A DNA stretch of 64,000 nucleotides from Candidatus Pacearchaeota archaeon (lineage in GTDB: Archaea > Nanobdellota > Nanobdellia > Pacearchaeales > GW2011-AR1). The stretch lies in assembly GCA_040879765.1 (NCBI GenBank), contig JBBDJQ010000001.1, positions 348,023-412,022 on the forward strand. Reading direction: 5' to 3'. Numbering within the stretch: position 1 is the first letter of the stretch; every line of letters starts with the position of its first letter. Of this stretch, positions 1 through 59,879 are shown piece by piece. The position numbers and the translations under genes were made by a program. Below the pieces are notes generated by a model. The model had not been told where the DNA came from. It saw only the letters and a program-made list of their open reading frames with translations, and ran no database searches.

Positions 1-109
1 AATTGAATTGAAAGTTATAAAATAAAAAATTCGTTTCCCTCCCAAAATACAATCGCTACTTCTCCGATTTTCTTTGAAAATCTCGATTTTTTCTCAAAGA
101 GAAAAAGGA

Positions 110-238
110 TTTAACAGGGGATAAAGAGTTCCGCCTTCACTCTGCCGTTCGGCTCCACCCAAATTCTTCTTCCAGCTCGAGCCTGTGAGGTTCCGCTCCA
201 GTCTCGAGGTCAGAAGAACTTTCCTTATCCCCGATGTT
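110..238 (+). repeat. attC-like structured hairpin element A1
   Basis: 5' TTTAACAGGGGATAAAGAG pairs with 3' CTTTCCTTATCCCCGATGTTAG. Central motif CACCCAAATTCTTCTTCC. Confidence 0.6.
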
Positions 239-265
239 AGTTTCAATTAAATCGGACTTTGAAAT

Positions 266-337
266 CCCCCGACCACCCGCCCCTAAAGAGGAGGATTCGC
301 CGTCGTCCTTCGGACATATAGTCTGCTTCGCAGAAAG
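266..337 (+). repeat. CCCCGACCACCCGCCCC module plus CGTCCTTCGGACATATAGTCT module
   Basis: CCCCCGACCACCCGCCCC recurs at 12284-12303. The second part recurs at 11345-11376. Confidence 0.55.
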
Positions 338-522
338 TAAAAACAGAAAAATACTTCTTTTATCGGACCGAAAAAACACCAACGAAATTTTAAGAAAATT
401 TCGCCTAACAAACGATAAAAGGTTTCACTTCGTTACACCCAAATATTTTTCAGTTTTTTATTGGGGCACTCTCAAAACCGAAAGCAAAACTTTTTATACG
501 AGTTTTCTTTTGTTAATTTATT

Positions 523-975
523 ATGGCTAAAGAAAATTGGATTAAAAAACACCCTGTTTGGTCAGGAGTTATCGGAGTTCTTTTATTGTTTATTTTGATT
601 GGAATGTTTAGTGGTGGAGATAATTCTTCTACAACAAATAAGCAATATACCGATGATACTAAAACAGCTGTTGAAAAAATGACTGCTCTTGAACAAATGG
701 AAATCGCTTTTGTTGGAGGTTACTCATATGATGAAATTAAAAATCGTATTGACTCAGTTATGCAACAATACGGATTATCAATGACTAACGAGAATTATAG
801 TCGGTTCGGAAGTGCTTTAGTTGCTGTTCGTAAAGAAACTGGGGCATCAGAAATGGATATACTCACATGCATGAAATCATTAGATTACAGAAATACGATT
901 GGTTGGGATAAAATAACTGCCGAAAAAGCTGTTCCAGATGCTGTAGGACTTTGTGGAGCCACTCTTAGTTCTTAA
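523..975 (+). CDS. Hypothetical membrane-anchored protein (N-terminal TM helix, soluble C-terminal domain)
   Basis: 150-aa ORF. Hydrophobic segment at residues 13-30. No recognisable catalytic motif. Lies between two attC-like hairpins. Confidence 0.5.
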   Translation: MAKENWIKKHPVWSGVIGVLLLFILIGMFSGGDNSSTTNKQYTDDTKTAVEKMTALEQMEIAFVGGYSYDEIKNRIDSVMQQYGLSMTNENYSRFGSALVAVRKETGASEMDILTCMKSLDYRNTIGWDKITAEKAVPDAVGLCGATLSS

Positions 976-976
976 A

Positions 977-1498
977 ATGGCAATTTTAATTTCCGTTAAA
1001 GTTTACAATCTTCAAACAACAGATTTTCATAATTTAATTTATGAAAAATTTAGAGAACTAATAAATAAAATTAAAGAAAATAAAACCCTTCATTCTTTTC
1101 ATTGGTTAATGGGTTCAGATGAAAGCTACGGAAATCAAATAAATCTTCACCTTAAAATTGAAGAAAATCAATCTCAGGAAATCAAAGATATAATCAACGA
1201 AATATTAAAAGATTATAAAATAAAAACTTCCGAAACCTCTGAAAAAGAAAATGCTGGAGATACAGAAACCTTAGGTCCAAATTGCAAATTTTTATTATCA
1301 GAATTCTTACATTCATGTTGTAAATTAGCTTTAGAAAGAACTAATCCAGAAAATAAAGAATACTTTTCTAAAGATTTAACCATTGAAAAATTTCTTCATT
1401 GTTTTCTAAATTCTCAAGGAATGACTTATCAGGAAGAAATTGTTTTTTGCACTAATTATGCAAATGCAATTCATAAAATGCTCTATGATTCAAAATAA
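977..1498 (+). CDS. Hypothetical protein
   Basis: The ATG at 977 lies 1 nt after the upstream stop, giving a tight pair with the 523-975 ORF. The ORF track starts this ORF at 953. No recognised domain. Confidence 0.45.
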   Translation: MAILISVKVYNLQTTDFHNLIYEKFRELINKIKENKTLHSFHWLMGSDESYGNQINLHLKIEENQSQEIKDIINEILKDYKIKTSETSEKENAGDTETLGPNCKFLLSEFLHSCCKLALERTNPENKEYFSKDLTIEKFLHCFLNSQGMTYQEEIVFCTNYANAIHKMLYDSK

Positions 1499-1515
1499 TA
1501 ACGAGAGGACCCTAT

Positions 1516-1641
1516 CTTCTTTTTGAAAAAAAGAAGCAAAAAGACGGCGAATCCTCTAATACATGAAAACCGATGGTTCCCACCATCCCAAAGTCCGATT
1601 TAACTTTACATTTTTGCCTTCGGCATCGTTGCACTAAAATG
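1516..1641 (+). repeat. Composite intergenic repeat: A/T palindrome (TTCTTTTTGAAAAAAAGAA) + CTCTAATACAT + CCCACCATCCCAAA...GCCTTCGGCATCGTTGCACTAAAA module
   Basis: The same three-part module recurs at 15216-15360. The palindrome part recurs at 1826-1863, 11261-11331 and 34397-34450. Confidence 0.6.
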
Positions 1642-1663
1642 TAATCCCTGCAAGTATTCGGGA

Positions 1664-1793
1664 GAAACTAACAGCAGATTAAGCGGTTCCAAAACCTTGC
1701 AGGTTTTTCCACCCATATTTTTGCTTCGCAAAAACACTCGGGGTCGTTTCACTCCGCCCGAGCCCTACGGGTCGCTTAATCGCGATGTTATAC
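1664..1793 (+). repeat. attC-like structured hairpin element A2
   Basis: 5' AACAGCAGATTAAGCGG pairs with 3' CGCTTAATCGCGATGTTAT. Internal CCTTGCAGG and CCACCCATATTTTTGCTTCG. Confidence 0.6.
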
Positions 1794-1982
1794 GCAATTA
1801 AATTTTCACTCTTTCTAAATATCATTCTTCTTTTAGAAAAAGAAGCAAAAGAGGGGGAGTCCAGGTGCTACGCACATTTACACTCACAACTTCGTTGTTC
1901 GAAATTTATTAGAGGGGGCTTTTAGTCCTTCGGACATTTTCACTCCCTTCGGTCGATATTTTTATAGGTGGGGCGAGAATGT

Positions 1983-2795
1983 TTAATGTTCCCAAGGAAA
2001 GAATCCAAGAACAGAATTATTTAATTCGTCTCTAAGTTGAGGCCATTGAGGTAAATGAGAATCCATCAAATTGAAAAATTTATCTGTATGATTTTTTTCT
2101 TTAAAATGAATCATTTCATGTAATAAAACATATTCTAAGCATCTAAGTGGATTTTTTGCAAGTTCCAAATTCAACCATATTCTTTTATCTTCAGCGTTAC
2201 AAGTTCCCCATTTTGTTTTCATCTTTTTAATAATAACTTCATTAACTTTAACTCCTGAATTCTTTTCCCATCTTTCTATAAGTTCAGGAATCTGTTTTTT
2301 AAGTTCTGCTCGATAAAAACTTTCAAGCATTTTCTCTTTTTGTTCTCTTGACATATTAGGCTTAACATACAAATCAATATGAGTTTTCTTTTTTATTTCA
2401 ACTCTAGGCTTATTTTCTGTATCAATTACATTCAATCTATACCTATTGCCTAAAAAATAATGACTTTCTCCAGAAATAAATTCTCTTTTAGTTTGTCTTT
2501 TTTGTCTCTCAAATTTCGCTTTTTGTTTTTTAATCCATGGAATTTTAGAAATTATGAATAATCTAATAGATTCATCATTCATCTTTTTTGGAGCTGCGAC
2601 CCTTATTCTACCTTGAGGAGGATAAACTCCCAAGTGCATATTTTTGATATTCTTCTTTACAGTTTGCACTTGTAAACCGCAAATCTGCATATTATCAAGA
2701 CTGGTACTCACTTTGAGCCTCCGCAATTTTGAAGACTTTCTCAACATTTTCGTCATCATCAATATCATATTTTGAAAGAGCTTTCTTAATCCCAA
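1983..2795 (-). CDS. M48/DUF45 (YgjP/WLM-like) zinc metallohydrolase
   Basis: HEMIH (HExxH) motif and the 'WI.KQ' N-terminal region typical of DUF45. An alternative ATG at 2690 would give a 4-nt overlap with the hsdR stop. This family is often found adjacent to hsdR. Confidence 0.75.
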   Translation of the reverse strand: MGLRKLFQNMILMMTKMLRKSSKLRRLKVSTSLDNMQICGLQVQTVKKNIKNMHLGVYPPQGRIRVAAPKKMNDESIRLFIISKIPWIKKQKAKFERQKRQTKREFISGESHYFLGNRYRLNVIDTENKPRVEIKKKTHIDLYVKPNMSREQKEKMLESFYRAELKKQIPELIERWEKNSGVKVNEVIIKKMKTKWGTCNAEDKRIWLNLELAKNPLRCLEYVLLHEMIHFKEKNHTDKFFNLMDSHLPQWPQLRDELNNSVLGFFPWEH

Positions 2796-5772
2796 TTCGG
2801 ATTTTTTTCTCTTTCATTTTATTGCCTTTCCAACTATCTTGTTTTGATTTTAAAATATTTTTATGGATAGAAACCGCAATATTTTCATCATTATCTAAAT
2901 TATCATATAAAGAACGCATTGCATTTGTTTCAATTGAGTCGGGATATTTTGTTTTCCCTGTATCTCTTACTCTCTTTATAAGTTCAGCAATTTTCTTTAA
3001 ATAATTAGCATAATCAATCGCTTTCTTTTTTCTATCAATTATTAATTCATCTAATAAGAAAGACATCCTTTCATAATATTTTGGATTAGTTGGTTTTTCT
3101 TCAATAATCAATCTACGAACATTATTTTCAATTGCTTCTGCTACTGCTTGTTTATTCTTTTTAATATTATCAGGCAAATCATTAACTGCATCTATTCCTT
3201 TTCTAATTATTAAATCAACAAGAGTCATATCTTCAAATGCTGAGATTGTTTTGCTTTCTTCAGCATCAATATATGAATCAATTAAATGCCTCATTGCTGG
3301 CTCATAAGCTTTCAAGTCAATATAATCTCCGCTAGCAAGCTTTACTTCTAGTCTTACCCCTTCATAATATTTTACTTCTTTTTTTATTTTTTCAATTTCT
3401 TGTTTAGTATATCCTGCCTTTGCCATTTCGTTTGCAAGATTTGAAAATGATCTTACTAACTTTGAAGTAAGTTTGTATAATGCAATTCTCTTTTGTTCGT
3501 TATTTTTCAAATCATCAGGATTTTCTGTATCCCCACAGAAGAATTCTATAAAAGCAAGTGTATCTTTTGGAGGTTTAACTGGTTCGCACAATACTTTGAT
3601 TGCCTCTCTTGAATCTTCAAGTTTTTCTTTTGATTTTTCAAGTCTGTCTTTAAGTAAACCTGCAACATCATCTTTATCAAATCCTTCAAATGCTTCAGAA
3701 GTATAATCAGTTACTGCCTTGTTTAAACTCTTGAATAAATCTTTATAATCAATTATATATCCATAATCTTTATCTTCAGAATCAAGCCTGTTTACTCTAC
3801 AAATTGCTTGAAATAATCCATGATCTTGCATACTTTTATCAATATAAAGATATGTTGCTGGTGGAGCATCAAAACCAGTCAATAGTTTATCAACCACAAT
3901 AAGAAGTTTCATCTGGTGTGGTTCTTTAATGAATTTATCTTTTATGATTCTTTCAAAAGTTTCTGCATCCTTAATATCTGAATAAATAGTTTTATAGAAT
4001 TTTATCATGTCTTGATATATTTGATATTTCTGAATGTTTTCTGTATCTTCATCCATATCAACAGTTTCTCCTTTAACAGAACTGATATCTCCCCCGTATG
4101 ATGAGATAATTGCACATTTTTTTAATCCATTTTTTTGAAATAATTCATAATATTTGCAAGCTTGATAAATGCTTCCTGCGACAAGAATTGCGTTTCCTCT
4201 TCCGCTGATTAATCTGTCTTTTGTTTCCATATCAAGCATAATATCTGCAACAATTCTGTTTAATCTCGCTTGAGAACTCAAAACTTTTCTCATTGTTCCC
4301 CATTTCTTTTTTAGCTCAACTTTAGCAAAATCATTTAATCCTCTAGTTTTTGCTTCAAACCATTGATCAATCTTATTTTGAGAATTTATTTTTTGGTCAA
4401 TTTCTCTTGCTTCGTATTGCAAATCAAGAACAACTTCATCTTCAACTGCTTCATCATATTTGTAAGTATGAATATATCTTCCAAATGTTTCTATACTTCT
4501 TTTTTTCTCGCTTTTTAGAAGTGGTGTTCCTGTAAAACCAATAAAGGTTGCATCAGGCAATATTTCAGTCATTGCTTCGTGCAATTTCCCAGATTGTGTT
4601 CTATGACATTCATCTACAAAAACATAAATATCTCCTTTTGCTTTAAAGTTTTGAGGGAGACTTATCTTAATCTCTTCAAGATATTTTTCAAAATCTGTTT
4701 CTGTGCTTCTACCAAATTTATGAACTAAAGAACACATAAGCCATGGTAATGTATTGTTTAATTTATTGATTAAGTCTCTCCCACTTTTAGTTCTATAAAT
4801 TTCTTCATTTACTCCCATAAAGAATTTTTCAATCTGACCGTCTAATTCTTCCCTGTCTGTTATGATTAGAACCCTTGAGTTTGTGATGTTTTCTCTTATC
4901 CATTTAGCAAGCCAAATCATGGTTAAGCTTTTTCCAGAGCCTTGGGTATGCCAAATTATTCCGCCTTCTTTTTTCTTGAGGTGTTTTTGTGCTGCTTTTA
5001 CTCCAAAATATTGATTATGTCTGCAAATCTTTTTGATTCCTGCATCAAAGACTATAAAATTGTGGATTAGTTCAAGAATTCTTTCTTTTTCGCAAATGGA
5101 GAGGAGATATTTATCTAATTTATTCTTTATGTTTTTGTTTTCTTTCCAGTTCAGATAATATTTTTCAGGAGTGAGAATTGTTGCATATCTTAATCCTTCT
5201 GTATCATTTCCAGCCATAACTAATTGGATTGTGCTAAAGAAATTTTGAATAAATGTGTTTTTTTGATTGTCCAAGTTTTGTCTTATACCTTCTGTAATTG
5301 AAACAGTGCTTCGTTTTAATTCTAAAACTCCAACAGCAATTCCGTTGATGTAGATGACAACATCAGGTCTCTTATTATGTTCTCCTTTGATTGTGACTTC
5401 TTCAGCTATTGCAAAATGGTTTTTCTTTATATTTGTCCAATCAATTAAATGAACAGTCTTTTTATTTTCTCCAACATTTTCTCTGACCTGGATTCCATAT
5501 CTAAGCATTTCATAGACTTCTTTATTGAGATCATAAAGCCCTTTGTTCTGTGCTTTTGCCGCCTTATTTAATTCATATAATGCTTTTTTGATTAAGTTTT
5601 CAGAATATTTCTGTTTTTTGAGGAATTTGATTAAAAGTTCTTCTTCAATATTTGAGTTTGTTCTTTCTTCCCAGTTTCCTAAATAATCATAATCCAGCTT
5701 ATCTTTATCAGTAAATAGCTTTATGACTCTGTCTTGAGTCTTTCTTTCAATTTGTGCGACATTCATTTCCAT
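2695..5772 (-). CDS. hsdR: Type I restriction enzyme R subunit (HsdR)
   Basis: 1025 aa. N-terminal PD-(D/E)xK nuclease region (DVVIYINGIAVGVLELK). Helicase motif I HTQGSGKSLTM, motif II VDECHR, and a TGTP motif. 10-nt overlap with the hsdS 3' end. Confidence 0.9.
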   Translation of the reverse strand: MEMNVAQIERKTQDRVIKLFTDKDKLDYDYLGNWEERTNSNIEEELLIKFLKKQKYSENLIKKALYELNKAAKAQNKGLYDLNKEVYEMLRYGIQVRENVGENKKTVHLIDWTNIKKNHFAIAEEVTIKGEHNKRPDVVIYINGIAVGVLELKRSTVSITEGIRQNLDNQKNTFIQNFFSTIQLVMAGNDTEGLRYATILTPEKYYLNWKENKNIKNKLDKYLLSICEKERILELIHNFIVFDAGIKKICRHNQYFGVKAAQKHLKKKEGGIIWHTQGSGKSLTMIWLAKWIRENITNSRVLIITDREELDGQIEKFFMGVNEEIYRTKSGRDLINKLNNTLPWLMCSLVHKFGRSTETDFEKYLEEIKISLPQNFKAKGDIYVFVDECHRTQSGKLHEAMTEILPDATFIGFTGTPLLKSEKKRSIETFGRYIHTYKYDEAVEDEVVLDLQYEAREIDQKINSQNKIDQWFEAKTRGLNDFAKVELKKKWGTMRKVLSSQARLNRIVADIMLDMETKDRLISGRGNAILVAGSIYQACKYYELFQKNGLKKCAIISSYGGDISSVKGETVDMDEDTENIQKYQIYQDMIKFYKTIYSDIKDAETFERIIKDKFIKEPHQMKLLIVVDKLLTGFDAPPATYLYIDKSMQDHGLFQAICRVNRLDSEDKDYGYIIDYKDLFKSLNKAVTDYTSEAFEGFDKDDVAGLLKDRLEKSKEKLEDSREAIKVLCEPVKPPKDTLAFIEFFCGDTENPDDLKNNEQKRIALYKLTSKLVRSFSNLANEMAKAGYTKQEIEKIKKEVKYYEGVRLEVKLASGDYIDLKAYEPAMRHLIDSYIDAEESKTISAFEDMTLVDLIIRKGIDAVNDLPDNIKKNKQAVAEAIENNVRRLIIEEKPTNPKYYERMSFLLDELIIDRKKKAIDYANYLKKIAELIKRVRDTGKTKYPDSIETNAMRSLYDNLDNDENIAVSIHKNILKSKQDSWKGNKMKEKKIRIGIKKALSKYDIDDDENVEKVFKIAEAQSEYQS

Positions 5773-6983
5773 TTTAATCTTATCCTGCCTGTTAATAATT
5801 GTTGCATCATACCTTCTTTAATCATTTGGTATTTATTACGCTTTTGTTCTAATTGTTCGATTTCAGAGTCCATATCTGAGAGGATTGAAGCGATTGCGGA
5901 TTGTTCCTTTTGATCATTTGGGATTTTTAACTCAAATTCTTGAAATGTGGGTAACCTCAAAGAATCAACTGTTGCTTTAACAGAGTTTTTTGTTGCCTGT
6001 TTATGAAAATCATAAAGCATATAGTAATAAATGAATTTCCCAGAAATTTCTCTGCCAAAATTACTTATTTTATACACTCTTTGATGATAGTCGAATTTTC
6101 CATTAATATAATGGAATATGCTACCAACTCCACCTTCTCCAGGCACAAGTATTGCTTCACCATCAAATGAATAAGAATTTATTCTCTCGACATTTTGTGA
6201 CCTTACAAAGAAAGGATATGAAGCTTCTTCAATTTTATCTTCATTATTTTTCTTGCCAGTTTTAATGTCAGTAAAATCTCCCAACTTCTTCTCTTCCCAT
6301 TCTCCACTAAACCCTGGCAGTCTTTTCTTTCCTGTCAAGAGTTCCTGCATTGCTCCTTTTTTGATGTCTTTCTTTTTTGAGATGAGTTTGTTGAGGTGTT
6401 GGATTAATTCATCAGTTTGTGAGAGGGCGGTTGCGATTGCTGATTGTTCTTGTTTTGACTTTGGGAGGGCAACTTTTGTTTTTCTGAATACATCCATCCC
6501 TACAAGATTTTTCATAGCTCCTCCTTGAGTGCTATCAATTATTTTATCCTGAAATTTTTCCCAATCAAAATATTGAAAGAAATAATCTTTATCAATAATG
6601 GACGAGTTTAACCTAATAATCAAAAGAGCTTGATTAATTATTCCTTGTGGGGCATTTTTAGGTATTAAATATATTCTTCCAATCGTGCCTGAACAACTCA
6701 CTATAAAATCTCCAGATTTGACTTCAAATCTTTTTAATTCCATAAATTTATTTTGATCAATATAATAGTCTCCAAGTTCTATGTCTCTGTAAATTGCATT
6801 TTTTTGTTCATAAACTTTTAGACCTCTTTTTACAAAAAACTCTTTTTTAAGTGAACCACCAAAAGGTCCTCTAATTAATCCATCAGATTCTGTTAGTTCT
6901 GAAAGAGTACCATCTTCCCAATCTTCAGGTATAACTCCTATTTCAGTTTGCTTGTATCCTTGTGGAATTGTTTCAGTCGTCAT
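5763..6983 (-). CDS. hsdS: Type I R-M specificity subunit (HsdS)
   Basis: 406 aa with two target-recognition domains. The conserved repeats AMQELLTGKKRL and MMQQLLTGRIRL are typical of HsdS. Confidence 0.85.
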   Translation of the reverse strand: MTTETIPQGYKQTEIGVIPEDWEDGTLSELTESDGLIRGPFGGSLKKEFFVKRGLKVYEQKNAIYRDIELGDYYIDQNKFMELKRFEVKSGDFIVSCSGTIGRIYLIPKNAPQGIINQALLIIRLNSSIIDKDYFFQYFDWEKFQDKIIDSTQGGAMKNLVGMDVFRKTKVALPKSKQEQSAIATALSQTDELIQHLNKLISKKKDIKKGAMQELLTGKKRLPGFSGEWEEKKLGDFTDIKTGKKNNEDKIEEASYPFFVRSQNVERINSYSFDGEAILVPGEGGVGSIFHYINGKFDYHQRVYKISNFGREISGKFIYYYMLYDFHKQATKNSVKATVDSLRLPTFQEFELKIPNDQKEQSAIASILSDMDSEIEQLEQKRNKYQMIKEGMMQQLLTGRIRLKWK

Positions 6984-6984
6984 A

Positions 6985-8631: not shown

Positions 8632-8632
8632 C

Positions 8633-11041: not shown

Positions 11042-11042
11042 A

Positions 11043-11189
11043 TTATTCTCGCCCCCTCTTCTTTAGTTCTTCTTCCATACACTTTTCAAATTGACGAGAT
11101 ACAATCCAACCCTCATGTTTACAGAGTTCTCTATATTTATCATATAATTTCGTATTAACTTTCAATGTGATATTTTTACTTTCTTCCAT
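11043..11189 (-). CDS. Small ribbon-helix-helix (CopG-like) protein, putative operon regulator
   Basis: 48-aa ORF, MEESKNITLKVNTKLYDKYRELCKHEGWIVSRQFEKCMEEELKKRGRE, absent from the ORF track because it is below the length cut-off. It has a beta-strand followed by two helices. Its stop TAA lies 1 nt before the hsdM ATG. It is preceded by a GAGGGGGCGAGAATG SD-like motif. Confidence 0.5.
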   Translation of the reverse strand: MEESKNITLKVNTKLYDKYRELCKHEGWIVSRQFEKCMEEELKKRGRE

Positions 11190-11260
11190 TCTCGCCCCCT
11201 CTGATGATTAGACTAAATATAAATAACCGCACATATTTATAAATATTGCTATAATACAAT

Positions 11261-11376
11261 GTTCTTTTAGAAAAAGAACCAAAAGTAAAAGCCCCCTCTT
11301 TTTTCTTTTTTAAAAAAAGAAACAAAAAATCTGGACTCCCCCTCGTCCTTCGGACATATAGTCTCCTACGGAGAAA
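11261..11376 (+). repeat. Two A/T palindromes plus a 'CGTCCTTCGGACATATAGTCT' module in the divergent hsdM/hydrolase intergenic region
   Basis: GTTCTTTTAGAAAAAGAAC and TTTTTTCTTTTTTAAAAAAAGAAA palindromes. CCTCGTCCTTCGGACATATAGTCTCCTACGGAGAAA matches 298-337 and is partly shared with 1925-1955 and 34318-34340. Confidence 0.55.
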
Positions 11377-11430
11377 TTTATTATCGTGAAAATTTAACTG
11401 AGCCTTCGGCTTTTTTTCTTGCAGAAAAAA

Positions 11431-11513
11431 CGTATAACAGCGATTAAGAGGAAATTTCCTGCTGAAATTTCCCAAATTCGCTTCGCGAACTTCTCTTAAT
11501 CGCGATGTTATGT
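11431..11513 (+). repeat. attC-like structured hairpin element A3
   Basis: 5' ATAACAGCGATTAAGAGG pairs with 3' CTCTTAATCGCGATGTTAT. Loop AAATTTCCTGCTGAAATTTCCCAAATT is identical to that of A4. Confidence 0.65.
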
Positions 11514-11574
11514 GCAATTTTTGGCGGCGGCTAGAAGAAACTTTTATTAATCCTGCTTCCTTTATTTATTAACT

Positions 11575-12132
11575 ATGACCAACATTATTATCATTCATGG
11601 TACTGGCGGAAATCCCAACGGAAACTGGTTTCCTTGGCTTAAATCTGAACTTGAAAAAATAGATTGTAGAGTTTTCGTCCCAAAATTTCCTCTTCAAGAA
11701 AATCAATCGTTAGAAAATTGGCTCAAAGTTTTCAAAGATTATGAGCAATACTTGGACGAAAACTCTATTGTTGTTGGTCATAGTCTCGGACCTGCATTTT
11801 TGTTAAGTGTTCTTGAAAATCTACAACACCCAATCAAAGCAGCATTTTTTGTTGCTGGTTTTACAGGTTTGCTGAATAATCCTGACTTTGATGAACTTAA
11901 TAAAACATTTACTACCAAAAGCTTTGATTGGGATAAAATCAAGAACAATTGCAAGAGATTTTATGTAATCAATTCCGATAATGACCCTTATGTTCCTCTT
12001 GAAAAAGGAAAATCTCTTGCTCAAAATTTAGACACGGAATTGATTACTATCAAAAATGCAGGTCATATTAATGAGGAAGCAGGATTTACTGAATTTGAGT
12101 TTCTTCTTGATAAAATAAAGAATGAATTATAA
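11575..12132 (+). CDS. Alpha/beta-hydrolase fold serine hydrolase (RBBP9/YdeN-like)
   Basis: GHSLG nucleophile elbow, HGTGGNP N-terminal motif, and a C-terminal GH. 185 aa. Confidence 0.75.
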   Translation: MTNIIIIHGTGGNPNGNWFPWLKSELEKIDCRVFVPKFPLQENQSLENWLKVFKDYEQYLDENSIVVGHSLGPAFLLSVLENLQHPIKAAFFVAGFTGLLNNPDFDELNKTFTTKSFDWDKIKNNCKRFYVINSDNDPYVPLEKGKSLAQNLDTELITIKNAGHINEEAGFTEFEFLLDKIKNEL

Positions 12133-12180
12133 CGCCGCCGCCAAAAACTGTCCCTTCGGTCGTTCGCCTTGCAGGCTCAC

Positions 12181-12262
12181 CACATAACAAGGGATAAAAG
12201 GAAATTTCCTGCTGAAATTTCCCAAATTGCCTTCGGCAACTTCTTTTATCCCTAACGTTCAA
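12181..12262 (+). repeat. attC-like structured hairpin element A4
   Basis: 5' ATAACAAGGGATAAAAGG pairs with 3' CTTTTATCCCTAACGTT. Same loop as A3. Confidence 0.65.
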
Positions 12263-12373
12263 GGAAATCACAGATGAGTCTAAAGCCCCCGACCACCCGC
12301 CCCAAAATAGTCAAATCAAAGATTTGAAATTATCATTAGAGACTGCGTGCAAAACAAAAAGTAAGGAGAGGAT

Positions 12374-12691
12374 TCAGTATTCTCTTTCTACAGTCAATAA
12401 AGGATGCAAAGCTTCATATTCTGGAGAACCTTTTTTGTAAACAATTGAATCCTCAATATTTGGAACTTGGGAACCATTTCCATAAGCAAATCTCTTCATA
12501 ACAATTCCATCTATGTAGATTTTATTATCACTATAGTGGGGCTCAATCACTACTTTTTCGGCAGTTGTCACAAAAATTGTTGGTTGTCTTTCGGAATCAC
12601 TTTTTTGCTCGTTATTCGTTTCATGGTTACATCCTGTAAAAGCCATAGCCCCTGCTAAAACAATTGATGCCAGTGTGTTTTTTGTTTTCAT
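12374..12691 (-). CDS. Small secreted lipoprotein-like protein
   Basis: Signal peptide with an AFTGC lipobox-like motif. 105 aa. Confidence 0.45.
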   Translation of the reverse strand: MKTKNTLASIVLAGAMAFTGCNHETNNEQKSDSERQPTIFVTTAEKVVIEPHYSDNKIYIDGIVMKRFAYGNGSQVPNIEDSIVYKKGSPEYEALHPLLTVEREY

Positions 12692-12781
12692 GTTTAATAC
12701 CTCCTTGCAATTATTTTGTAACTTTATAGTAGTGTAGTGTTAGAGTAATATTTAAATATATGTGGTGTTATACAATACCAC

Positions 12782-13537
12782 ATGATGCTTGAAAATCTGA
12801 AAGAACTCGGTCTGAGTGCGGGACAAATTAAAGTATATTCTGCTGTTTTAGAGTTAGGTATATCTACACTTAACAAAATACAAGAAAAAACAGGTATAGA
12901 GCGCAGAAATATATATGACATTTTAAACAAGCTCATAGAAGCAGGGCTTATTTCATACACTATTGAAAAAGGAAAAAGAACATACCAGTGTACGCATCCA
13001 AACAAACTTCTTGAAGAAATTAAAGATAAGGAGAAAAAGTTAAAGAATCTTGAAAGCCAAATTCCTGCTATAAAGGATCTTTTTGATCTCTCCAAACCAG
13101 AAATAAAAGCGGAAGTTTTTAGGGGAACTGAAGCAATTAAATCTCTTTTTGACGAAATACTTGAATACAAAGAATCTTATTGGTTAGGAGGAAATAGCTT
13201 TGAGGAATACAAAGCAGTTCCTGATAGTTTGCAAGTTTGGTTTGGACATTGGATGAATCAGAGAGTTGAAAAAAAACATGTGATGAATGATTTAGTCAGT
13301 CAGGGTACTTTTCTGAAAGGTTTAGAACCCAATAAAATAAGCAAACATAAAATTGCTTATTATAAGTATTGTTCACTACCAAAAGACCTTTATGTGCCGA
13401 TGGTAATAATAATTTTCGGCAATAAAGTTGCACAAATCTTATGGGGAAAACAATCCTTTGCTTTCGTATTAGAATCTGATAAAATAAAGGAAAGCTTTAT
13501 GAGATATTTCAATCATTTCTGGAAAAATCCTTACTAA
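12782..13537 (+). CDS. TrmB-family transcriptional regulator
   Basis: N-terminal wHTH (LGLSAGQIKVYSAVLELG...TLNKIQEKTGIERRNIYDILNKL) followed by a C-terminal effector domain. Confidence 0.7.
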   Translation: MMLENLKELGLSAGQIKVYSAVLELGISTLNKIQEKTGIERRNIYDILNKLIEAGLISYTIEKGKRTYQCTHPNKLLEEIKDKEKKLKNLESQIPAIKDLFDLSKPEIKAEVFRGTEAIKSLFDEILEYKESYWLGGNSFEEYKAVPDSLQVWFGHWMNQRVEKKHVMNDLVSQGTFLKGLEPNKISKHKIAYYKYCSLPKDLYVPMVIIIFGNKVAQILWGKQSFAFVLESDKIKESFMRYFNHFWKNPY

Positions 13538-13647
13538 AAATAAAACAACGCGCGCCGCCCCACCATCCAAAAATTCCAAATTAACTCTGCGGTGCTCACT
13601 TCGTTCCGCTCCTCGCCATGTCTTGCAGACTTTCGCCTTTGGCTCAG

Positions 13648-13736
13648 GACAGATAACAGTGATTATCTGGGATTTTCCTGCAAAAAATCCTCAAATTTCA
13701 CTTCGTGAAACTTCAGATAATCGCGATGTTGCTTGG
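13648..13736 (+). repeat. attC-like structured hairpin element A5
   Basis: 5' GATAACAGTGATTATCTGG pairs with 3' CAGATAATCGCGATGTTG. Loop GATTTTCCTGCAAAAAATCCTCAAATTTCAC. Confidence 0.6.
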
Positions 13737-13788
13737 CTTCGCCCAAAGAAGAAAAATTTATAAGTAACCATTCATCTTTTATTATATT

Positions 13789-14064
13789 ATGAAAAAAGAA
13801 ATTATTATTGGTGTTTTTGTCGGATTAATTTTAGGTTTAGTAATTGGATTTTTTATCTTTTCTCCAAAAACACCTATTGAAAATTTAAAGTTAAAAATTT
13901 GTCCAGATGCATGGTATGATGATCAAATGCCAACAATAATTGGAAGTAATAATCCTCCTTCACAATATTTCATTATAGATGGTGAAAGAAGAGAACTTTC
14001 TGAGTTTGATGTGGATTGGATAAAAGAAAATTGTGAAGTTAATGAACCAACTGTTGTTCAATAA
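13789..14064 (+). CDS. Small membrane-anchored protein
   Basis: 91 aa. One N-terminal TM helix. A CxxxC pair in the soluble part. Confidence 0.4.
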   Translation: MKKEIIIGVFVGLILGLVIGFFIFSPKTPIENLKLKICPDAWYDDQMPTIIGSNNPPSQYFIIDGERRELSEFDVDWIKENCEVNEPTVVQ

Positions 14065-14162
14065 ATCTTTCTTCTTTTCCCACCCTAATTTACTGCACCT
14101 AAAACTCAAAATCCTTTGGATTTTGCCACGCCTTGCAGGCTCTCCTCCTTTCAGTCGTCGGG

Positions 14163-14262
14163 TCACTTAACAAGGATTATACGGTTCAGCCCTCGGCTCG
14201 GGCTTCACCCAAATTTTTCTTCCACTTCGTTACAGAAAAACTTCTTATATCCCTAACGTTAG
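14163..14262 (+). repeat. attC-like structured hairpin element A6
   Basis: 5' CTTAACAAGGATTATACGG pairs with 3' CTTATATCCCTAACGTTAG. Central CACCCAAATTTTTCTTCC as in A1. Confidence 0.55.
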
Positions 14263-14460
14263 TTTCAATTTTTGAGAATGCCTACAAGTTAGAGTTAAAA
14301 CAAAGAAATAGGAAATAATATTTTTTCTCCCACCCAATAGGAGAGACGCGCGCAGTTGCTTCGCAACATTTAGTCTTGACTTCGTCAAGAAATTTTATTT
14401 GGCACTTTTCCAAAAAAGTTTAGATAACTTTTTAAATAAGTTATTCTATTTGTATTTATT

Positions 14461-15207
14461 ATGATAGAGTTTGCAGAATTCAAAAAATTTTTCCTATTTA
14501 ACTTAATTGGAGCGTTAGTTATTTCTGCAATCGTTGCAGTAGTTACTGTTCTTATTGGAGAATTTAATGAAACTGCTGCAAGAGTTTTATTCACTCTATT
14601 GATGGTCATTGTTCATTCGTTAATTGCTCTTGCTTTTATATGGGACGACACGAGACAAAATACTTTTGATAGACTTGCATTTTTTACTAACATCTTATTT
14701 TTAATTATTGTTGTTAGTTTTATTACTTCTATTCTTGGAATTTGGGAAGTACTTCCCGGAGAAATGGTTTGGAATCTATATCAAACTTATTTTGTAGTTG
14801 GATTTGCATCACTACACTCAGATATTTTATCTAAAGCTTTGAAAAGAGAAAAATATCTTGATATGATAGTTTACTTAAACTATGTATTTATTGCAATAGT
14901 TGTTTCGATGTTAATGCCTGTTATTTATATCGATAATGCCTTTAAGGTTCTAGGAGAGGTATATTATCGATTTTTAGGTGCAGCTGGAATTATTGACGGA
15001 ACATTAAGTATTTTGGCAATAATATTCTATAAACTTTATATGCACAAACATCCTGAAGAACAAAATACTTTGGCTGGTGGAGTACAATCAAGAAAAACAC
15101 AAAAGAAAGGACTAAGTATCTGGGTTTGGATTTTAATAGCATATTTACTTCTTCAAGTAGTTTTACCATTACTTTTTTATGGTGGATTTTGGTTATTCAA
15201 TAGATAA
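14461..15207 (+). CDS. Polytopic membrane protein (hypothetical)
   Basis: 248 aa. About six hydrophobic helices. Confidence 0.55.
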   Translation: MIEFAEFKKFFLFNLIGALVISAIVAVVTVLIGEFNETAARVLFTLLMVIVHSLIALAFIWDDTRQNTFDRLAFFTNILFLIIVVSFITSILGIWEVLPGEMVWNLYQTYFVVGFASLHSDILSKALKREKYLDMIVYLNYVFIAIVVSMLMPVIYIDNAFKVLGEVYYRFLGAAGIIDGTLSILAIIFYKLYMHKHPEEQNTLAGGVQSRKTQKKGLSIWVWILIAYLLLQVVLPLLFYGGFWLFNR

Positions 15208-15215
15208 AAGTACCA

Positions 15216-15360
15216 TTTCTTTTTAGAAAAAAAGAAACAAAAAAAGTGCGCGTCTCTCTAATACATTGCCCACCCAAAAAATATTATTTCAAATTAATAC
15301 AAACAGCATTCTCAAAAACTTTGATTTTTTGCCTTCGGCATCGTTGCACTAAAAATCACC
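15216..15360 (+). repeat. Second copy of the palindrome / CTCTAATACAT / GCCTTCGGCATCGTTGCACTAAAA composite module
   Basis: TTTCTTTTTAGAAAAAAAGAAACAAAAAAAG ... CTCTCTAATACATTG ... TTGCCTTCGGCATCGTTGCACTAAAAATCACC. Overlaps the rnhB 3' end by a few nt. Confidence 0.6.
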
Positions 15361-16020
15361 CAACTTTGTTTGGTTGGTTGCCATAATGGCTTGTTTCCAA
15401 GTTGCCCATGACTTTCTAAATATTCCTTTATCATTATGTTTCTTTAGATTTTTAGCAAGGAAAGTTTTTGTCAAAGGGTCTGAAGTATATCCTGAACCTA
15501 TTTCTTCACCATAAATTTCTTTTAACTTTTTCATTTCTTTTTCTCTTGTGTTTTTTGCTAGGATTGATGCGGCAGAAACTGATATGTGGTTTTGGTCTGC
15601 CTTGTGTTGACATAAGATTTCCAAGTTTGAAAGATTGTCTATCTTTGTTTTCAATAAATCTTGCCATTTTATTATGCTTGTTGAAGGACAATCGACAATT
15701 ACTCTTATTTTCCCATAACCTTTGTTTATTTTGTTTATTATTTTTGCACAAGCAATTGCTTCAATTTCGTTTAAATTAGTCCCTTCTTTAATCAATTTAT
15801 CTATTTGCTCGGGTTTCACAATAACTACCTCAAATGCTTCTATTTTTTCCTTAATTTTGTCTACAAGGAACTCCCTTCTTTTTTCTGTTAATTGTTTGCT
15901 ATCTCTTACCCCGAGCTTTCTTAGTCCTGTTGAATGTTTGTTGTCCATTAAAACTCCAGAGAGAATCATTGGGCCTATCACCGGACCTCTGCCTGCATCA
16001 TCAATTCCTAGTTCGAGCAT
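15349..16020 (-). CDS. rnhB: Ribonuclease HII
   Basis: GIDDAGRGPVIGPM N-terminal signature. 223 aa. Confidence 0.9.
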   Translation of the reverse strand: MLELGIDDAGRGPVIGPMILSGVLMDNKHSTGLRKLGVRDSKQLTEKRREFLVDKIKEKIEAFEVVIVKPEQIDKLIKEGTNLNEIEAIACAKIINKINKGYGKIRVIVDCPSTSIIKWQDLLKTKIDNLSNLEILCQHKADQNHISVSAASILAKNTREKEMKKLKEIYGEEIGSGYTSDPLTKTFLAKNLKKHNDKGIFRKSWATWKQAIMATNQTKLGDF

Positions 16021-52342: not shown

Positions 52343-52387
52343 ATTTAAGTTTAGAAAGAGGTTTATTTAAAGTTTTTGGAGATTTTT

Positions 52388-59878: not shown

Positions 59879-59879
59879 A

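What the first reader, a model, noticed from the sequence alone, without database searches (positions are those of the whole stretch)
110..15360. Array of six covarying attC-like hairpins delimiting gene cassettes; candidate integron-like cassette array (or CALIN) carrying a type I R-M operon
Seen in sequence: six plus-strand elements (110-238, 1664-1793, 11431-11513, 12181-12262, 13648-13736, 14163-14262) share one architecture. Each has a 5' (T)TAAC box and a 3' GTT box, the outermost pair being ATAAC/GTTAT. Next comes an asymmetric internal loop, with 2-3 nt on the 5' arm opposite 4-5 nt on the 3' arm (for example AG versus ATCG(C)). Then follows a 9-11 bp inner stem whose sequence differs between copies but is always self-complementary: GATTAAGAG/CTCTTAATC, GATTAAGCG/CGCTTAATC, GATTATCTG/CAGATAATC, GGGATAAAAG/CTTTTATCCC, GGGGATAAAG/CTTTCCTTATCCCC. 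The central loop carries a conserved CCCAAATT...CTTCG motif. Structure-preserving covariation with boxed ends and extrahelical bases is the hallmark of integron attC sites: R''(RYYYAAC)-L''...L'-R'(GTTRRRY), lengths 57-141 nt, recognised as folded hairpins. Vibrio superintegron VCRs show that the attC sites of one array can be near-identical. The elements also partition the region into cassette-like units. These are two small ORFs (A1 to A2), M48-hsdR-hsdS-X-hsdM-RHH at 9.7 kb (A2 to A3), one hydrolase (A3 to A4), lipoprotein plus TrmB (A4 to A5), a 91-aa membrane protein (A5 to A6), and a membrane protein after A6. Each unit has short promoter-poor spacers and typical cassette cargo: R-M, regulators, small membrane or secreted proteins. 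Integrons have been reported in metagenome-assembled archaeal genomes including DPANN (established knowledge). An IntI gene could lie just left of position 1. The alternative is a family of structured ncRNAs or REP-like elements. One solo degenerate copy (34446-34555) sits between core genes, so this cannot be excluded.
Basis: partly seen in the sequence, partly recalled or inferred. Interest (0 to 1): 0.82.

Follow-up and report, generated by a model that had tools for sequence, protein, structure and literature searches.

The report
Integron-like cassette array using Xer-type recombinase
The six hairpins are real recombination sites that bound mobile gene cassettes next to a tyrosine recombinase gene, as in an integron, but the sites and the enzyme belong to a different family found in both ultra-small archaea (DPANN) and ultra-small bacteria (CPR), which no paper in the searched library describes.

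Summary
The six plus-strand elements exist. A covariance model built on the family finds exactly these six, all between 107 and 14266, and none in the other 50 kb. The "solo copy" at 34446 is not one. They behave as cassette boundaries. The 6 nt after each GTT pair with the 6 nt before the AAC of the next element in 59% of 96 neighbouring pairs, against 7% for random pairs. Related cassettes in other genomes lose homology exactly at GTT. A 267-aa tyrosine recombinase gene lies about 660 bp left of position 1, divergently oriented. An attI-like junction sits 86 bp from its start codon.

The same layout recurs in 17 of 17 loci found through the element and 7 of 8 found through the recombinase, in Pacearchaeota, Woesearchaeota and Patescibacteria.

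It is not a canonical integron. The recombinase scores as XerA-type and lacks the IntI-specific domain. The sites lack extrahelical bases and have a 1x3 internal loop. A proxy canonical-attC model that detects class 1 attCs gives only noise here.

Best reading: a Xer-type, integron-like or IMEX-like cassette platform. Each cassette also carries its own long-range inverted repeats. I found no published description.

The parts
107..244 (+). Site A1 (attC-like hairpin; AAC at 113-115, GTT at 236-238). It closes the methyltransferase cassette that starts at the attI junction left of the window.
   Evidence: CM R1 58.8 bits. Its R'' GGATTTAAC is the exact complement of GTTAAATCC at L001 8901, which lies 86 bp from the recombinase start codon.
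1663..1797 (+). Site A2 (AAC at 1670-1672, GTT at 1787-1789). This is a long form with extra hairpins in the junction.
   Evidence: CM R1 23-34 bits. Its R'' GAAACTAAC complements the R' GTTAGTTTC of A1 at 6 of 6 flank positions.
11430..11515 (+). Site A3 (AAC at 11436-11438, GTT at 11507-11509).
   Evidence: CM R1 89.4 bits. It folds with z = -5.8 against shuffles. Its R'' ACGTATAAC matches the R' GTTATACGC of A2 at 5 of 6 positions.
12180..12265 (+). Site A4 (AAC at 12186-12188, GTT at 12257-12259).
   Evidence: CM R1 78.1 bits. Its R'' CCACATAAC matches the R' GTTATGTGC of A3 at 5 of 6 positions.
13649..13736 (+). Site A5 (AAC at 13655-13657, GTT at 13728-13730).
   Evidence: CM R1 65.8 bits. 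Its flanks are not matched with either neighbour.
14163..14266 (+). Site A6 (AAC at 14169-14171, GTT at 14258-14260). It is of the GGATATACGG/CCCTCGGCTCGGG type that predominates in CPR bacteria.
   Evidence: CM R1 81.3 bits. Near-identical bodies occur in Kerfeldbacteria, Magasanikbacteria and Woesearchaeota loci.
237..1787 (+). Cassette 1: two small ORFs (523-975 and 953-1498) with no Pfam match.
   Evidence: The ends are matched, GTTAGTTTC against GAAACTAAC. Nested cassette-specific inverted repeats lie at 247-261/1589-1603 and 291-304/1543-1556. Pfam scan.
1788..11507 (-). Cassette 2 (9.7 kb). It carries a type I restriction-modification operon on the opposite strand: YgjP peptidase 1983-2795, HsdR 2695-5772, HsdS 5763-6983, an unknown protein 6985-8643 and HsdM 8633-11041.
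   Evidence: Pfam. Five nested inverted-repeat pairs flank it: GTTATACG/CGTATAAC, 1798-1809/11386-11397, 1851-1864/11331-11344, 1911-1924/11286-11299 and 1970-1981/11187-11198.
11508..12257 (+). Cassette 3: serine hydrolase (11575-12132).
   Evidence: Pfam Ser_hydrolase. The ends are matched, GTTATGTG against CACATAAC, and there is an inverted repeat at 11518-11531/12134-12147, TTTTTGGCGGCGGC.
12258..13728 (.). Cassette 4: a small minus-strand ORF (12374-12691) and a TrmB-family regulator (12782-13537, plus strand). The ends are not matched, so this may be a fusion of two cassettes.
   Evidence: Pfam TrmB. Flank complementarity is 1 of 6. The same cassette start GTTCAAGGAAATCAC is seen in L118; GTTCAAGGAAATCACAGATG, also seen at the attI junction of L129.
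13729..14258 (+). Cassette 5: a 91-aa ORF (13789-14064).
   Evidence: ORF list. Flank complementarity is 2 of 6. There is a weak AT-rich inverted repeat at 13745-13754/14068-14077.
14259..15354 (+). Terminal unit: a 248-aa membrane-type ORF (14461-15207) with cassette-type ends but no closing hairpin. The array ends against the stop codon of the RNase HII gene (15349-16020, minus strand).
   Evidence: Nested inverted repeats lie at 14269-14281/15306-15318, 14312-14326/15276-15290 and 14341-14351/15248-15258. The trailer 15317-15354 is 92% identical to the cassette 1 trailer 1602-1639 (D20). No CM hit lies beyond 14266. RNase_HII.
1..236 (+). Tail of cassette 0. This is the methyltransferase cassette, which begins at the attI junction 577 bp left of window position 1. 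The ORF ends near window position 25.
   Evidence: L001 8991-9503 encodes a Methyltransf_11 protein. Window position 1 corresponds to L001 position 9479.

Best explanation
Region 1-15354 is the cassette array of an integron-like gene-capture platform. Its integrase is the divergently transcribed 267-aa Xer-type tyrosine recombinase encoded about 0.66 kb left of the window.

Shown:
(1) Each cassette runs from the TT of one GTT to the G of the next.
(2) The first bases of a cassette (TTAnnnnn) are complementary to the bases just before the AAC of the hairpin that closes it. The cassette was therefore once a circle in which these two ends formed one stem.
(3) The first cassette abuts a conserved site next to the recombinase gene. 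In Pacearchaeota this site reads GGATATATAACC-N7-GGTTAATATCC-NNNAYG|TT.

Inferred:
- The recombinase binds two 8-11-bp arms on either side of a 6-nt central region (NNRAYG) and cleaves at G|TT, the border between the central region and the right arm.
- In the attI-like site the left arm is double-stranded DNA. It is also the right arm of a dif-like palindrome.
- In the cassette site the left arm is the covarying stem P1b of a folded single strand, and the right arm is the R''/R' duplex.
- The central region is deliberately mismatched (A opposite R-A-Y). Only one strand exchange would then be completed and replication would resolve the product, as in integron attC x attI recombination and CTX-phi integration at dif.
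- The bottom strand is probably the folded one.
- The conserved single-stranded CCAAATT and AACTTC at the three-way junction probably take over the strand-marking role of the extrahelical bases that canonical attC sites have and these sites lack. That would fit a recombinase without the IntI domain that reads those bases.
- Cassette-specific inverted repeats of 10-18 nt extend the stem beyond the crossover point. They would stabilise the folded site in the circle. In the array they would draw the two hairpins flanking a cassette together for excision.
For: Family and structure. CM R1 finds 6 of 6 elements and nothing else in the window. Compensatory changes occur in 14 of 20 pairs.

Crossover at GTT. 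In 96 neighbouring pairs, the R' flank of element k-1 complements the R'' flank of element k at 5 or more of 6 positions in 59%. The figure is 13% within one element and 7% for random pairs. In the window, the methyltransferase cassette and cassettes 1, 2 and 3 have matched ends.

Mobility.
- A cassette that is 87% identical over 924 nt lies next to the attI site in L065 and between two hairpins in L068. Homology starts exactly at GTT.
- The L008/L041 homology also starts at GTT, and L103/L077 at GATGTT.
- The L039/L096 homology ends at GTT.

Recombinase linkage. In 17 of 17 element-first loci the homologous recombinase lies on the opposite strand, upstream of the array. In recombinase-first samples, 4 of 4 Pacearchaeota loci and 3 of 4 CPR loci have arrays in that position.

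attI. An exact or one-mismatch complement of the first element's R'' lies 24-201 bp from the recombinase start codon in 10 of 17 loci and in 6 of 7 loci. The Pacearchaeota sequence there is conserved.

Recombinase. All catalytic R-K-H-R-H-Y residues align, and the protein is XerA-type.

Array properties. Across 96 cassettes the median length is 804 nt, and the longest ORF is co-oriented with the elements in 76 of 90.

Strand. The bottom strand folds more stably in 178 of 190 elements. The CTNCG loops on the top strand are C(GNA)G triloops on the bottom strand, a loop type known to be very stable in DNA (established knowledge).

Long-range inverted repeats. They occur in 84% of end-matched cassettes against 13% of controls.
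Against: - No recombination has been observed directly. No circular junction or empty site was recovered.
- The only other assembly of this organism comes from the same sample and merely breaks inside the array.
- The recombinase is 66-80% identical across more than 100 Pacearchaeota protein clusters. It may simply be the housekeeping XerA next to its dif site, with the array exploiting it. That is still the proposed mechanism, but then it would not be a dedicated integrase.
- The strand evidence is modest. In the paired columns there are 76 A.C cells against 44 G.T cells.
- In L065/L068 the same cassette is followed by different hairpin bodies. A strict crossover at GTT only does not predict this.
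- Two of the five internal cassettes in the window have unmatched ends, and the last unit has no closing hairpin.
- One CPR recombinase locus (L135) has no detectable element.
Confidence: 0.72

Rival explanations
1. It is a canonical integron or CALIN. The elements are ordinary attC sites recombined by an IntI-type integron integrase, present here or acting in trans.
For: The general architecture is that of an integron: AAC...GTT imperfect palindromes, a same-orientation array, small co-oriented ORFs and a divergent tyrosine recombinase with an adjacent insertion site. Integrons, mostly CALINs, have been reported in Nanoarchaeota MAGs including Pacearchaeales (PMC9668308). NCBI names the protein 'site-specific tyrosine recombinase/integron integrase'.
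Against: The recombinase is below the TIGR02249 cut-off and lacks the IntI-specific domain. The proxy canonical-attC CM scores 9 bits or less on the elements and has no hit at E<=0.1 in 663 kb containing about 200 elements. The same model detects four class 1 attCs. There are no extrahelical bases, and the loop is 1x3 rather than the canonical unpaired spacer of about 5x5-6 nt. No IntI-type gene was seen in any of about 130 loci.
Confidence: 0.04
2. These are Xer/dif modules recombined as ordinary double-stranded DNA, like the pdif modules of Acinetobacter plasmids or classical IMEX. The hairpin potential would be incidental, and the recombinase would act on duplex core sites at each GTT.
For: The recombinase is Xer-type, and a dif-like palindrome (11-12-bp arms, 7-bp spacer) lies next to its gene. 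Each junction can be read as arm, 6-nt central region and arm. Strand asymmetry in non-Watson-Crick pairs is weak.
Against: A duplex site would not need the 60-130-nt body. Yet the stems of that body covary strongly while keeping their pairing. The right arm is cassette-specific and complementary to a sequence on the far side of the body, which makes sense only if the two pair. Stability is strand-biased, with the bottom strand more stable in 178 of 190 elements.
Confidence: 0.14
3. The elements are structured non-coding RNAs, such as 3'-UTR elements, terminators or processing sites, or passive REP/MITE-like repeats. They would have no role in gene mobility.
For: The three-way junction has conserved single-stranded motifs and covarying stems, which is typical of functional RNAs. 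The elements lie mostly downstream of co-oriented ORFs. Other GC-rich hairpin modules recur in intergenic DNA, including at 34300-34560 outside the array.
Against: There is no Rfam match. The elements keep their orientation around cassettes whose genes are inverted, namely the window R-M cassette and the 8-kb operon in L127. They occur only next to the recombinase gene and not elsewhere in 50 kb. Homology between genomes breaks exactly at GTT. The flank logic links neighbouring elements. The antisense (bottom) strand folds better.
Confidence: 0.06
4. The array is a relic. The cassettes were assembled by a mobile element or virus that is no longer present, and the adjacent recombinase is only the chromosomal Xer whose dif site served as the landing pad.
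For: The recombinase is highly conserved and flanked on the other side by housekeeping genes. The last unit lacks a hairpin, and two cassettes have unmatched ends. A few elements occur in contigs classed as viral.
Against: The same platform, with different cargo, is present in nearly every sampled relative in two domains. The sites remain intact and under structural constraint. Only one of the four viral-contig pattern matches is a strong CM hit.
Confidence: 0.04

Closest known systems
Integrons (IntI integrase, attI site, attC-bounded gene cassettes), including sedentary chromosomal integrons and the archaeal integrons of Ghaly et al. 2022 (PMC9668308)
   Same: A divergent tyrosine recombinase gene lies next to an insertion site and a same-orientation array of mostly single-ORF cassettes about 0.8 kb long. 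Each cassette is closed by an imperfect palindrome with AAC...GTT boxes. The crossover is at GTT, so the last bases of each site belong to the next cassette. The sites are near-identical across genomes and domains. Defence cargo such as R-M systems sits in reversed cassettes. Probably one folded strand is used.
   Different: The recombinase lacks the IntI-specific domain and scores as XerA-type. The sites have no extrahelical bases, a 1x3 loop instead of an unpaired spacer of about 5x5-6 nt, and a conserved three-way junction with CCAAATT and AACTTC. A proxy canonical-attC model does not see them. Complementarity extends tens of bases beyond the crossover point as cassette-specific inverted repeats. 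The hosts are CPR bacteria and DPANN archaea.
IMEX (integrative mobile elements exploiting Xer), in particular CTX-phi integration at Vibrio cholerae dif1. This comparison rests on established knowledge and was not tested here.
   Same: A Xer-family recombinase would act on a folded single-stranded hairpin that mimics a core site with a mismatched central region. One strand exchange would be resolved by replication. Elements accumulate in tandem at the site.
   Different: The inserts here are promoter-bearing gene cassettes of 0.4-10 kb, not phages or satellites. The site family is different. The target lies beside the recombinase gene. Up to 7 or more cassettes form an ordered array, each with its own hairpin.
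Single-recombinase Xer modules with the dif site next to the gene, such as XerS/difSL of streptococci (established knowledge), and archaeal XerA/dif (PMC2958812)
   Same: There is a single Xer-type enzyme. In Pacearchaeota a palindrome with 11-12-bp arms and a 7-bp spacer lies 50-90 bp from the start codon of the recombinase gene.
   Different: In Thermococcales the dif site is not next to xerA (PMC2958812). No cassette arrays are known at those sites. Whether the palindrome here serves as a dif site is untested.
pdif modules of Acinetobacter plasmids (PMC7399989, listed)
   Same: Discrete gene modules are bounded by Xer-type recombination sites and are found in different contexts.
   Different: pdif sites are 28-bp duplex sites in alternating orientation. 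They have no hairpin body, no adjacent recombinase gene and no attI-like entry point.
The 'Cand' subgroup of simple tyrosine recombinases (Smyshlyaev et al. 2021, PMC8138268)
   Same: These are Xer-related recombinases of candidate phyla, and the CPR proteins found here probably belong to the group.
   Different: That paper treats them as presumed Xer substitutes. It reports no associated sites or cassette arrays.

Membership tests
Integron (IntI + attI + attC cassettes) | The integrase is a tyrosine recombinase carrying the IntI-specific additional domain around patch III. | tested here: not met
   TIGR02249 scores 207.8 bits against a cut-off of 265, in two stretches that skip profile positions about 181-236. 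VchIntIA (2A3V) residues about 200-241 have no counterpart. The same holds for 7 further array-linked recombinases.
Integron (IntI + attI + attC cassettes) | The attC sites are recognised by an attC covariance model (R''/R' and L''/L' boxes, unpaired central spacer, extrahelical bases). | tested here: not met
   This was tested by proxy only. CM R2 was built from 8 experimentally used attCs. It gives 9 bits or less, E about 7, on the window elements and no hit in 663 kb of related arrays. It does detect the attCs of aadA1, cmlA5, dfrA14 and arr-2. IntegronFinder's own model could not be run.
Integron (IntI + attI + attC cassettes) | Extrahelical bases in the L box direct strand choice. | tested here: not met
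   Bulges in the 12-bp stem occur in 3 or fewer of 150 aligned elements.
Integron (IntI + attI + attC cassettes) | The crossover is at G|TT of R', so the bases after GTT belong to the next cassette. | tested here: met
   59% of 96 neighbouring pairs are complementary at 5 or more of 6 positions, against 7% of random pairs. Homology breakpoints fall at GTT. The exact phosphodiester bond within GTT cannot be resolved.
Integron (IntI + attI + attC cassettes) | Platform layout: a divergent integrase gene, an adjacent attI site, and a co-oriented array of mostly single-ORF cassettes. | tested here: met
   Found in 17 of 17 and 7 of 8 loci. attI junctions lie 24-201 bp from the start codon. The longest ORF is co-oriented in 76 of 90 cassettes.
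Integron (IntI + attI + attC cassettes) | Only the bottom strand of the folded site is recombined. | tested here: inconclusive
   The bottom strand folds more stably in 178 of 190 elements, and GNA triloops lie on the bottom strand. Wobble counts are only 76 against 44. There is no experiment.
Xer/dif and IMEX | The recombinase belongs to the Xer family. | tested here: met
   NF040815 recomb_XerA_Arch scores 235 bits against a cut-off of 220. The best PDB matches are XerA structures 4A8E and 5HXY. The other array-linked proteins score 202-233 bits.
Xer/dif and IMEX | The target is a dif-type core site: two inverted arms of about 11 bp around a spacer of 6-8 bp. | tested here: inconclusive
   A conserved palindrome, GGATATATAACC-N7-GGTTAATATCC, lies beside the Pacearchaeota gene, and the junction can be read as arm, 6 nt, arm. 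Its function as a dif site, and its position relative to the replication terminus, were not tested.
Xer/dif and IMEX | The recombinase is the host's chromosome-dimer resolvase. | not testable with these tools
   Only indirect evidence exists: 66-80% identity across more than 100 Pacearchaeota clusters and housekeeping neighbours.
Structured ncRNA family (Rfam) | A match to a curated RNA family. | tested here: not met
   No family was hit at gathering score across the window, nor at E<=5 over 1-16000, apart from chance-level hits.
REP / MITE-type dispersed repeats | Copies are scattered through the genome between unrelated genes in either orientation. | tested here: not met
   All six copies lie in one orientation in one 14-kb block next to the recombinase. 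None lies in the other 50 kb. The same holds in related loci.

The most novel reading that the evidence does not exclude
CPR bacteria and DPANN archaea share a previously unrecognised 'Xer-integron'. In it the short, possibly housekeeping, Xer-type recombinase captures and stockpiles gene cassettes at a site beside its own gene. The cassette sites are a distinct family of folded three-way-junction hairpins that can be about 98% identical between the two domains. The system would be a sister or precursor of the integron, essentially IntI without its extra domain. It would also be a concrete vehicle for the known gene sharing between CPR and DPANN organisms.
Probability: 0.55. Interest if true: 0.93.

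Novelty: new variant of a known kind. Interest (0 to 1): 0.87.

Why it matters
Integrons are the textbook system for capturing genes by site-specific recombination. They are defined by IntI and its special domain. This locus shows the same strategy built from a plain Xer-type recombinase and a different site family.

The system is widespread in the two great radiations of ultra-small, host-dependent microbes. Standard integron finders probably miss it.

If confirmed, it would do four things:
- It would make the origin of integrons from Xer recombinases testable.
- It would offer a mechanism for cross-domain gene flow between CPR and DPANN. The site bodies in a Kerfeldbacteria locus and a Woesearchaeota locus differ at about 2 positions in roughly 95.
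- It would identify the accessory-gene locus of these reduced genomes, which here carries a complete type I R-M system.
- It would provide a compact recombinase and hairpin-site pair of possible use as a tool.

The cassette-specific long-range inverted repeats have no counterpart in known integrons. They pose a question of their own.

Tried and rejected
- Rfam, at gathering score and at relaxed E-value, found nothing at the elements.
- I considered K-turn, BHB and self-cleaving ribozyme motifs by eye. The consensus does not fit any of them.
- I first read the CTTCG loops as RNA UUCG tetraloops, which would favour a plus-strand RNA. The stems only close if the loops are 3-nt loops, that is GNA triloops on the other strand. 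I therefore dropped the RNA reading.
- The repeat finder for inverted repeats was swamped by AT-rich chance pairs. I replaced it with an exact-match script restricted to intergenic DNA.
- The 'solo copy' at 34446 was rejected.
- I looked for cassette polymorphism in other assemblies of this organism. Only one other assembly exists. It comes from the same sample, and its contigs simply break inside the array.
- I checked whether Ghaly et al. 2022 had already listed these sites. Their nine tested archaeal attCs are canonical and contain no CAAATT. Their Pacearchaeales CALIN contigs could not be inspected.
- A viral-contig scan gave 4 pattern matches, of which only one is a strong CM hit. There is no sign of a viral carrier.
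- Wobble-pair counting as a test of strand was only weakly informative.
- Five literature searches found no description of the system. The library lacks most subscription journals.

Full report
1. THE OBSERVATION

The window has 33% G+C and carries intron-containing tRNA genes. Its proteins match a Candidatus Pacearchaeota MAG.

At the six stated places there are related plus-strand elements of 86-138 nt. Each folds into a three-way junction. The parts are:
- an outer (T)AAC/GTT(A) pairing;
- an internal loop;
- a 12-bp stem, P1b;
- two hairpins, P2 and P3;
- two conserved linkers, CCAAATT and AACTTC.

I scanned one genome per species with a strict pattern derived from four of the elements. 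It has 0 matches expected by chance in the window.

An alignment of 50 family members shows compensatory changes in 14 of 20 predicted pairs. A covariance model built on that alignment (R1) was run on the window with all filters off. It finds the six elements, all on the plus strand between 107 and 14266, and nothing else at E<=0.01.

The element proposed at 34446-34555 is not a member. The internal loop is 1 nt (A) opposite 3 nt (R-A-Y). The stem carries no conserved bulged bases.

2. THE ELEMENTS ARE CASSETTE BOUNDARIES

In 107 loci the model finds about 210 elements. Within a locus they always share one orientation, often in arrays of 3-7 spaced 0.5-1.5 kb apart. The median cassette is 804 nt, and its longest ORF is co-oriented with the elements in 76 of 90 cases.

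The decisive pattern is in the flanks. The 6 nt after the GTT of element k-1 are complementary to the 6 nt before the AAC of element k. This holds at 6 of 6 positions in 36 of 96 neighbouring pairs and at 5 of 6 in 21 more, or 59% in total. The figure is 13% for the two flanks of one element and 7% for random pairs. This is what is expected if each cassette was once a circle with a complete site that was opened at the GTT.

In the window the rule holds in three cases:
- A1 to A2: GTTAGTTTC against GAAACTAAC;
- A2 to A3: GTTATACGC against ACGTATAAC;
- A3 to A4: GTTATGTGC against CCACATAAC.

Related cassettes also occur in different contexts, and their homology ends at the predicted points.
- An 87%-identical 924-nt cassette abuts the recombinase-proximal site in L065 and lies between two hairpins in L068. 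Homology begins exactly at GTT.
- The L008/L041 homology begins at GTT, and the L103/L077 homology at GATGTT.
- The L039/L096 homology ends at GTT.

3. THE RECOMBINASE AND THE ENTRY SITE

A Logan contig from SRR27977663 extends the window to the left. A 267-aa tyrosine recombinase gene lies on the minus strand at L001 8011-8814. Window position 1 corresponds to L001 position 9479. A methyltransferase ORF follows on the plus strand, and then A1.

The sequence GTTAAATCC lies 86 bp from the recombinase start codon. It is the exact complement of the R'' of A1, GGATTTAAC. The methyltransferase is therefore the first cassette, and the sequence to the left of that GTT is an attI-like site.

The layout is general.
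- A homologous recombinase lies in 17 of the loci found through the element (counting L001, the window's own left flank). It is always on the opposite strand and upstream of the array.
- Starting instead from the protein, 4 of 4 Pacearchaeota homologues and 3 of 4 CPR homologues on long contigs have elements in that position.
- The junction is found 24-201 bp from the start codon in 10 of 17 loci and in 6 of 7 loci.

In Pacearchaeota the site is conserved: GGATATATAACC-N7-GGTTAATATCC-NNNAYG|TT. It is a dif-like palindrome. Its right arm, a 6-nt central region and the first bases of the cassette can be read as a second core site, with cleavage at the border between the central region and the arm. 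The 3' half of each hairpin has the same reading: (..TATCC or ..TAATC), then NNRAYG, then TTAnnnnnAAT. In CPR loci both the hairpin and the entry site carry TTCGTATA in the left arm.

4. IT IS NOT A CANONICAL INTEGRON

The recombinase passes the NCBIfam XerA_Arch cut-off (235 vs 220 bits). It fails the integron-integrase cut-off (207.8 vs 265) and aligns to that model in two pieces. Against VchIntIA (2A3V), residues about 200-241 have no counterpart. Seven other array-linked recombinases behave the same way. The domain that defines IntI is therefore absent (PMC9668308; PMC8138268). The catalytic residues are present.

IntegronFinder's model was not available, so I built a proxy (R2). It uses attC(aadA7) and seven archaeal attCs from the primer table of PMC9668308. 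These share 16 canonical pairs, two extrahelical bases and an unpaired spacer of 5-6 nt.
- R2 recovers the attCs of aadA1 (67.8 bits), cmlA5 (46.5), dfrA14 (22-25.6) and arr-2 (16.9) in a class 1 integron.
- On the window, its best score at an element is 9.0 bits (E about 7), which is within noise.
- It finds nothing at E<=0.1 in 663 kb holding about 200 elements.
- Conversely, R1 finds nothing in the class 1 integron.

The lack of extrahelical bases fits the lack of the protein domain that reads them in IntI. This last point is an inference.

5. WHICH STRAND, AND DNA OR RNA

The elements keep their orientation around cassettes whose genes are inverted. Examples are the 9.7-kb type I R-M cassette here and an 8-kb operon in L127. 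This argues against transcript-level elements.

The bottom strand folds more stably than the top strand in 178 of 190 elements. Mean energies are -18.1 against -16.1 kcal/mol with DNA parameters. Non-Watson-Crick cells in the paired columns are A.C in 76 cases, which is G.T on the bottom strand, and G.T in 44.

The frequent CTTCG, CTACG and TTGCA loops only close as 3-nt loops. On the bottom strand these read C(GAA)G, C(GTA)G and T(GCA)A. GNA triloops are known to be unusually stable in DNA (established knowledge).

I therefore favour a folded bottom-strand DNA substrate, as in integrons and CTX-phi. This remains an inference.

6. AN EXTRA FEATURE: CASSETTE-SPECIFIC LONG-RANGE INVERTED REPEATS

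Beyond the 6-9-nt flank match, the two ends of each cassette share further exact inverted repeats of 10-18 nt. These are nested and differ from cassette to cassette. In the window they are:
- cassette 1: 247-261/1589-1603 and 291-304/1543-1556;
- the R-M cassette: 1798-1809/11386-11397, 1851-1864/11331-11344, 1911-1924/11286-11299 and 1970-1981/11187-11198;
- cassette 3: 11518-11531/12134-12147;
- the terminal unit: three pairs.

Across loci, 84% of end-matched cassettes have at least one such repeat, with a mean of 24 nt. Mismatched controls show 13% and a mean of 1.4 nt.

In the circular form these repeats would extend the stem of the site well beyond the crossover point. In the array they would loop out the cargo and bring the two flanking hairpins together. 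Their role is unexplained and has no counterpart in canonical integrons.

7. DISTRIBUTION

Hits lie on contigs labelled Woese-, Pace-, Nano- and Aenigmatarchaeota. They also lie on contigs labelled Kerfeld-, Magasanik-, Falkow-, Uhr-, Nomura-, Berkel-, Gracili-, Peregrini- and Saccharibacteria and other Patescibacteria. Some of these contigs are 100-820 kb long, and some come from single-cell genomes. A few other labels sit on short contigs and may be binning errors.

The site bodies can be nearly identical across domains. L015 (Kerfeldbacteria, 822-kb contig) and L072 (Woesearchaeota, 103-kb contig) differ at about 2 of 95 positions. The window's own array mixes the two main body types, A3 and A6.

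8. WEAK POINTS

- No recombination event was observed directly.
- The recombinase is highly conserved and may be the housekeeping Xer.
- In L065/L068 the same cassette is followed by different hairpin bodies. This suggests occasional exchange on the AAC side or homologous recombination between bodies.
- Cassettes 4 and 5 in the window have unmatched ends. The terminal unit (14259-15354) has no closing hairpin.
- One CPR locus had no detectable element.

9. COMPARISON AND NOVELTY

The system works like an integron and, in its likely chemistry, like an IMEX. It fails the defining tests for integron membership: the IntI domain, the attC model and the extrahelical bases.

Five full-text searches found no description of it. 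The nearest statements are two. Ghaly et al. found canonical integrons and CALINs in some Nanoarchaeota MAGs. Smyshlyaev et al. grouped Xer-like recombinases of candidate phyla as 'Cand' without associated sites. The library omits most subscription journals, so prior description cannot be excluded.

I class the system as a new variant of a known kind.

Noticed in passing
window 247-304 with 1543-1603; 1798-1981 with 11187-11397; 11518-11531 with 12134-12147; 14269-14351 with 15248-15318: Every well-bounded cassette carries its own nested exact inverted repeats of 10-15 nt at its two ends, beyond the recombination boxes. These are interleaved with conserved modules: C-rich tracts, GTCCTTCGGAC hairpins, and AT-rich hairpins followed by CAAAAA. 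The pattern is general across loci, at 84% against 13% in controls. Its function is unknown.
   Followed up: partly
window 34300-34560: An intergenic region outside the array contains the same cassette-end modules (TAGTCCTTCGGACA, CTTCTTTTTCTAAAAAGAAACAAAAAA, TCTCTCTAAT) but no hairpin site. It may be a remnant of a lost cassette, or these modules may be general terminator-like elements of this genome.
   Followed up: no
window 52380-52560, minus strand: A GC-rich stretch begins GCCCCGATGG and ends GGTTCGAGTCCTGGTCGGGGCG, so it looks like the two ends of a tRNA separated by about 110 nt. Neither Rfam at gathering score nor ARAGORN calls it. It may be a tRNA with a very long intron.
   Followed up: no
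window 16230-16363 (+) and 57256-57385 (-): Rfam tRNA hits of 130-134 nt indicate intron-containing archaeal tRNA genes. ARAGORN in bacterial mode calls only the two intron-less tRNAs.
   Followed up: no
window 59000-64000: There are long, diverged direct repeats of 40-300 nt at 66-91% identity inside coding sequence. They suggest a very large repetitive surface-type protein gene or gene family (D1-D7).
   Followed up: no
L128 12245-12333 (recombinase at 10001-10846): In one Pacearchaeota locus a second hairpin site lies beyond the 3' end of the recombinase gene, in addition to the array on the usual side. The recombinase gene may itself sit between two sites.
   Followed up: no
L065 7173-7272 compared with L068 1859-1962 (array-oriented coordinates): The same cassette (87% identical) ends in the same R'' box, TCACTTAAC, but is followed by hairpin bodies of two different types. 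Hairpin bodies can therefore be exchanged independently of the cargo.
   Followed up: partly
L127 1829-10001; window 1788-11507: Very large cassettes of 8-10 kb carry whole operons in reverse orientation. One holds a heavy-metal ATPase with redox genes and the other a type I R-M system. Both sit among otherwise single-gene cassettes, the L127 one directly next to the entry site.
   Followed up: no
L001 8841-8895: The motif AAAAAGGTTACTA occurs twice as a direct repeat upstream of the insertion point. This is reminiscent of the accessory integrase-binding direct repeats of attI1.
   Followed up: no
window 33072-33143: An 18-nt tandem repeat lies in coding sequence and encodes a Lys/Ala-rich repeat (D14).
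   Followed up: no
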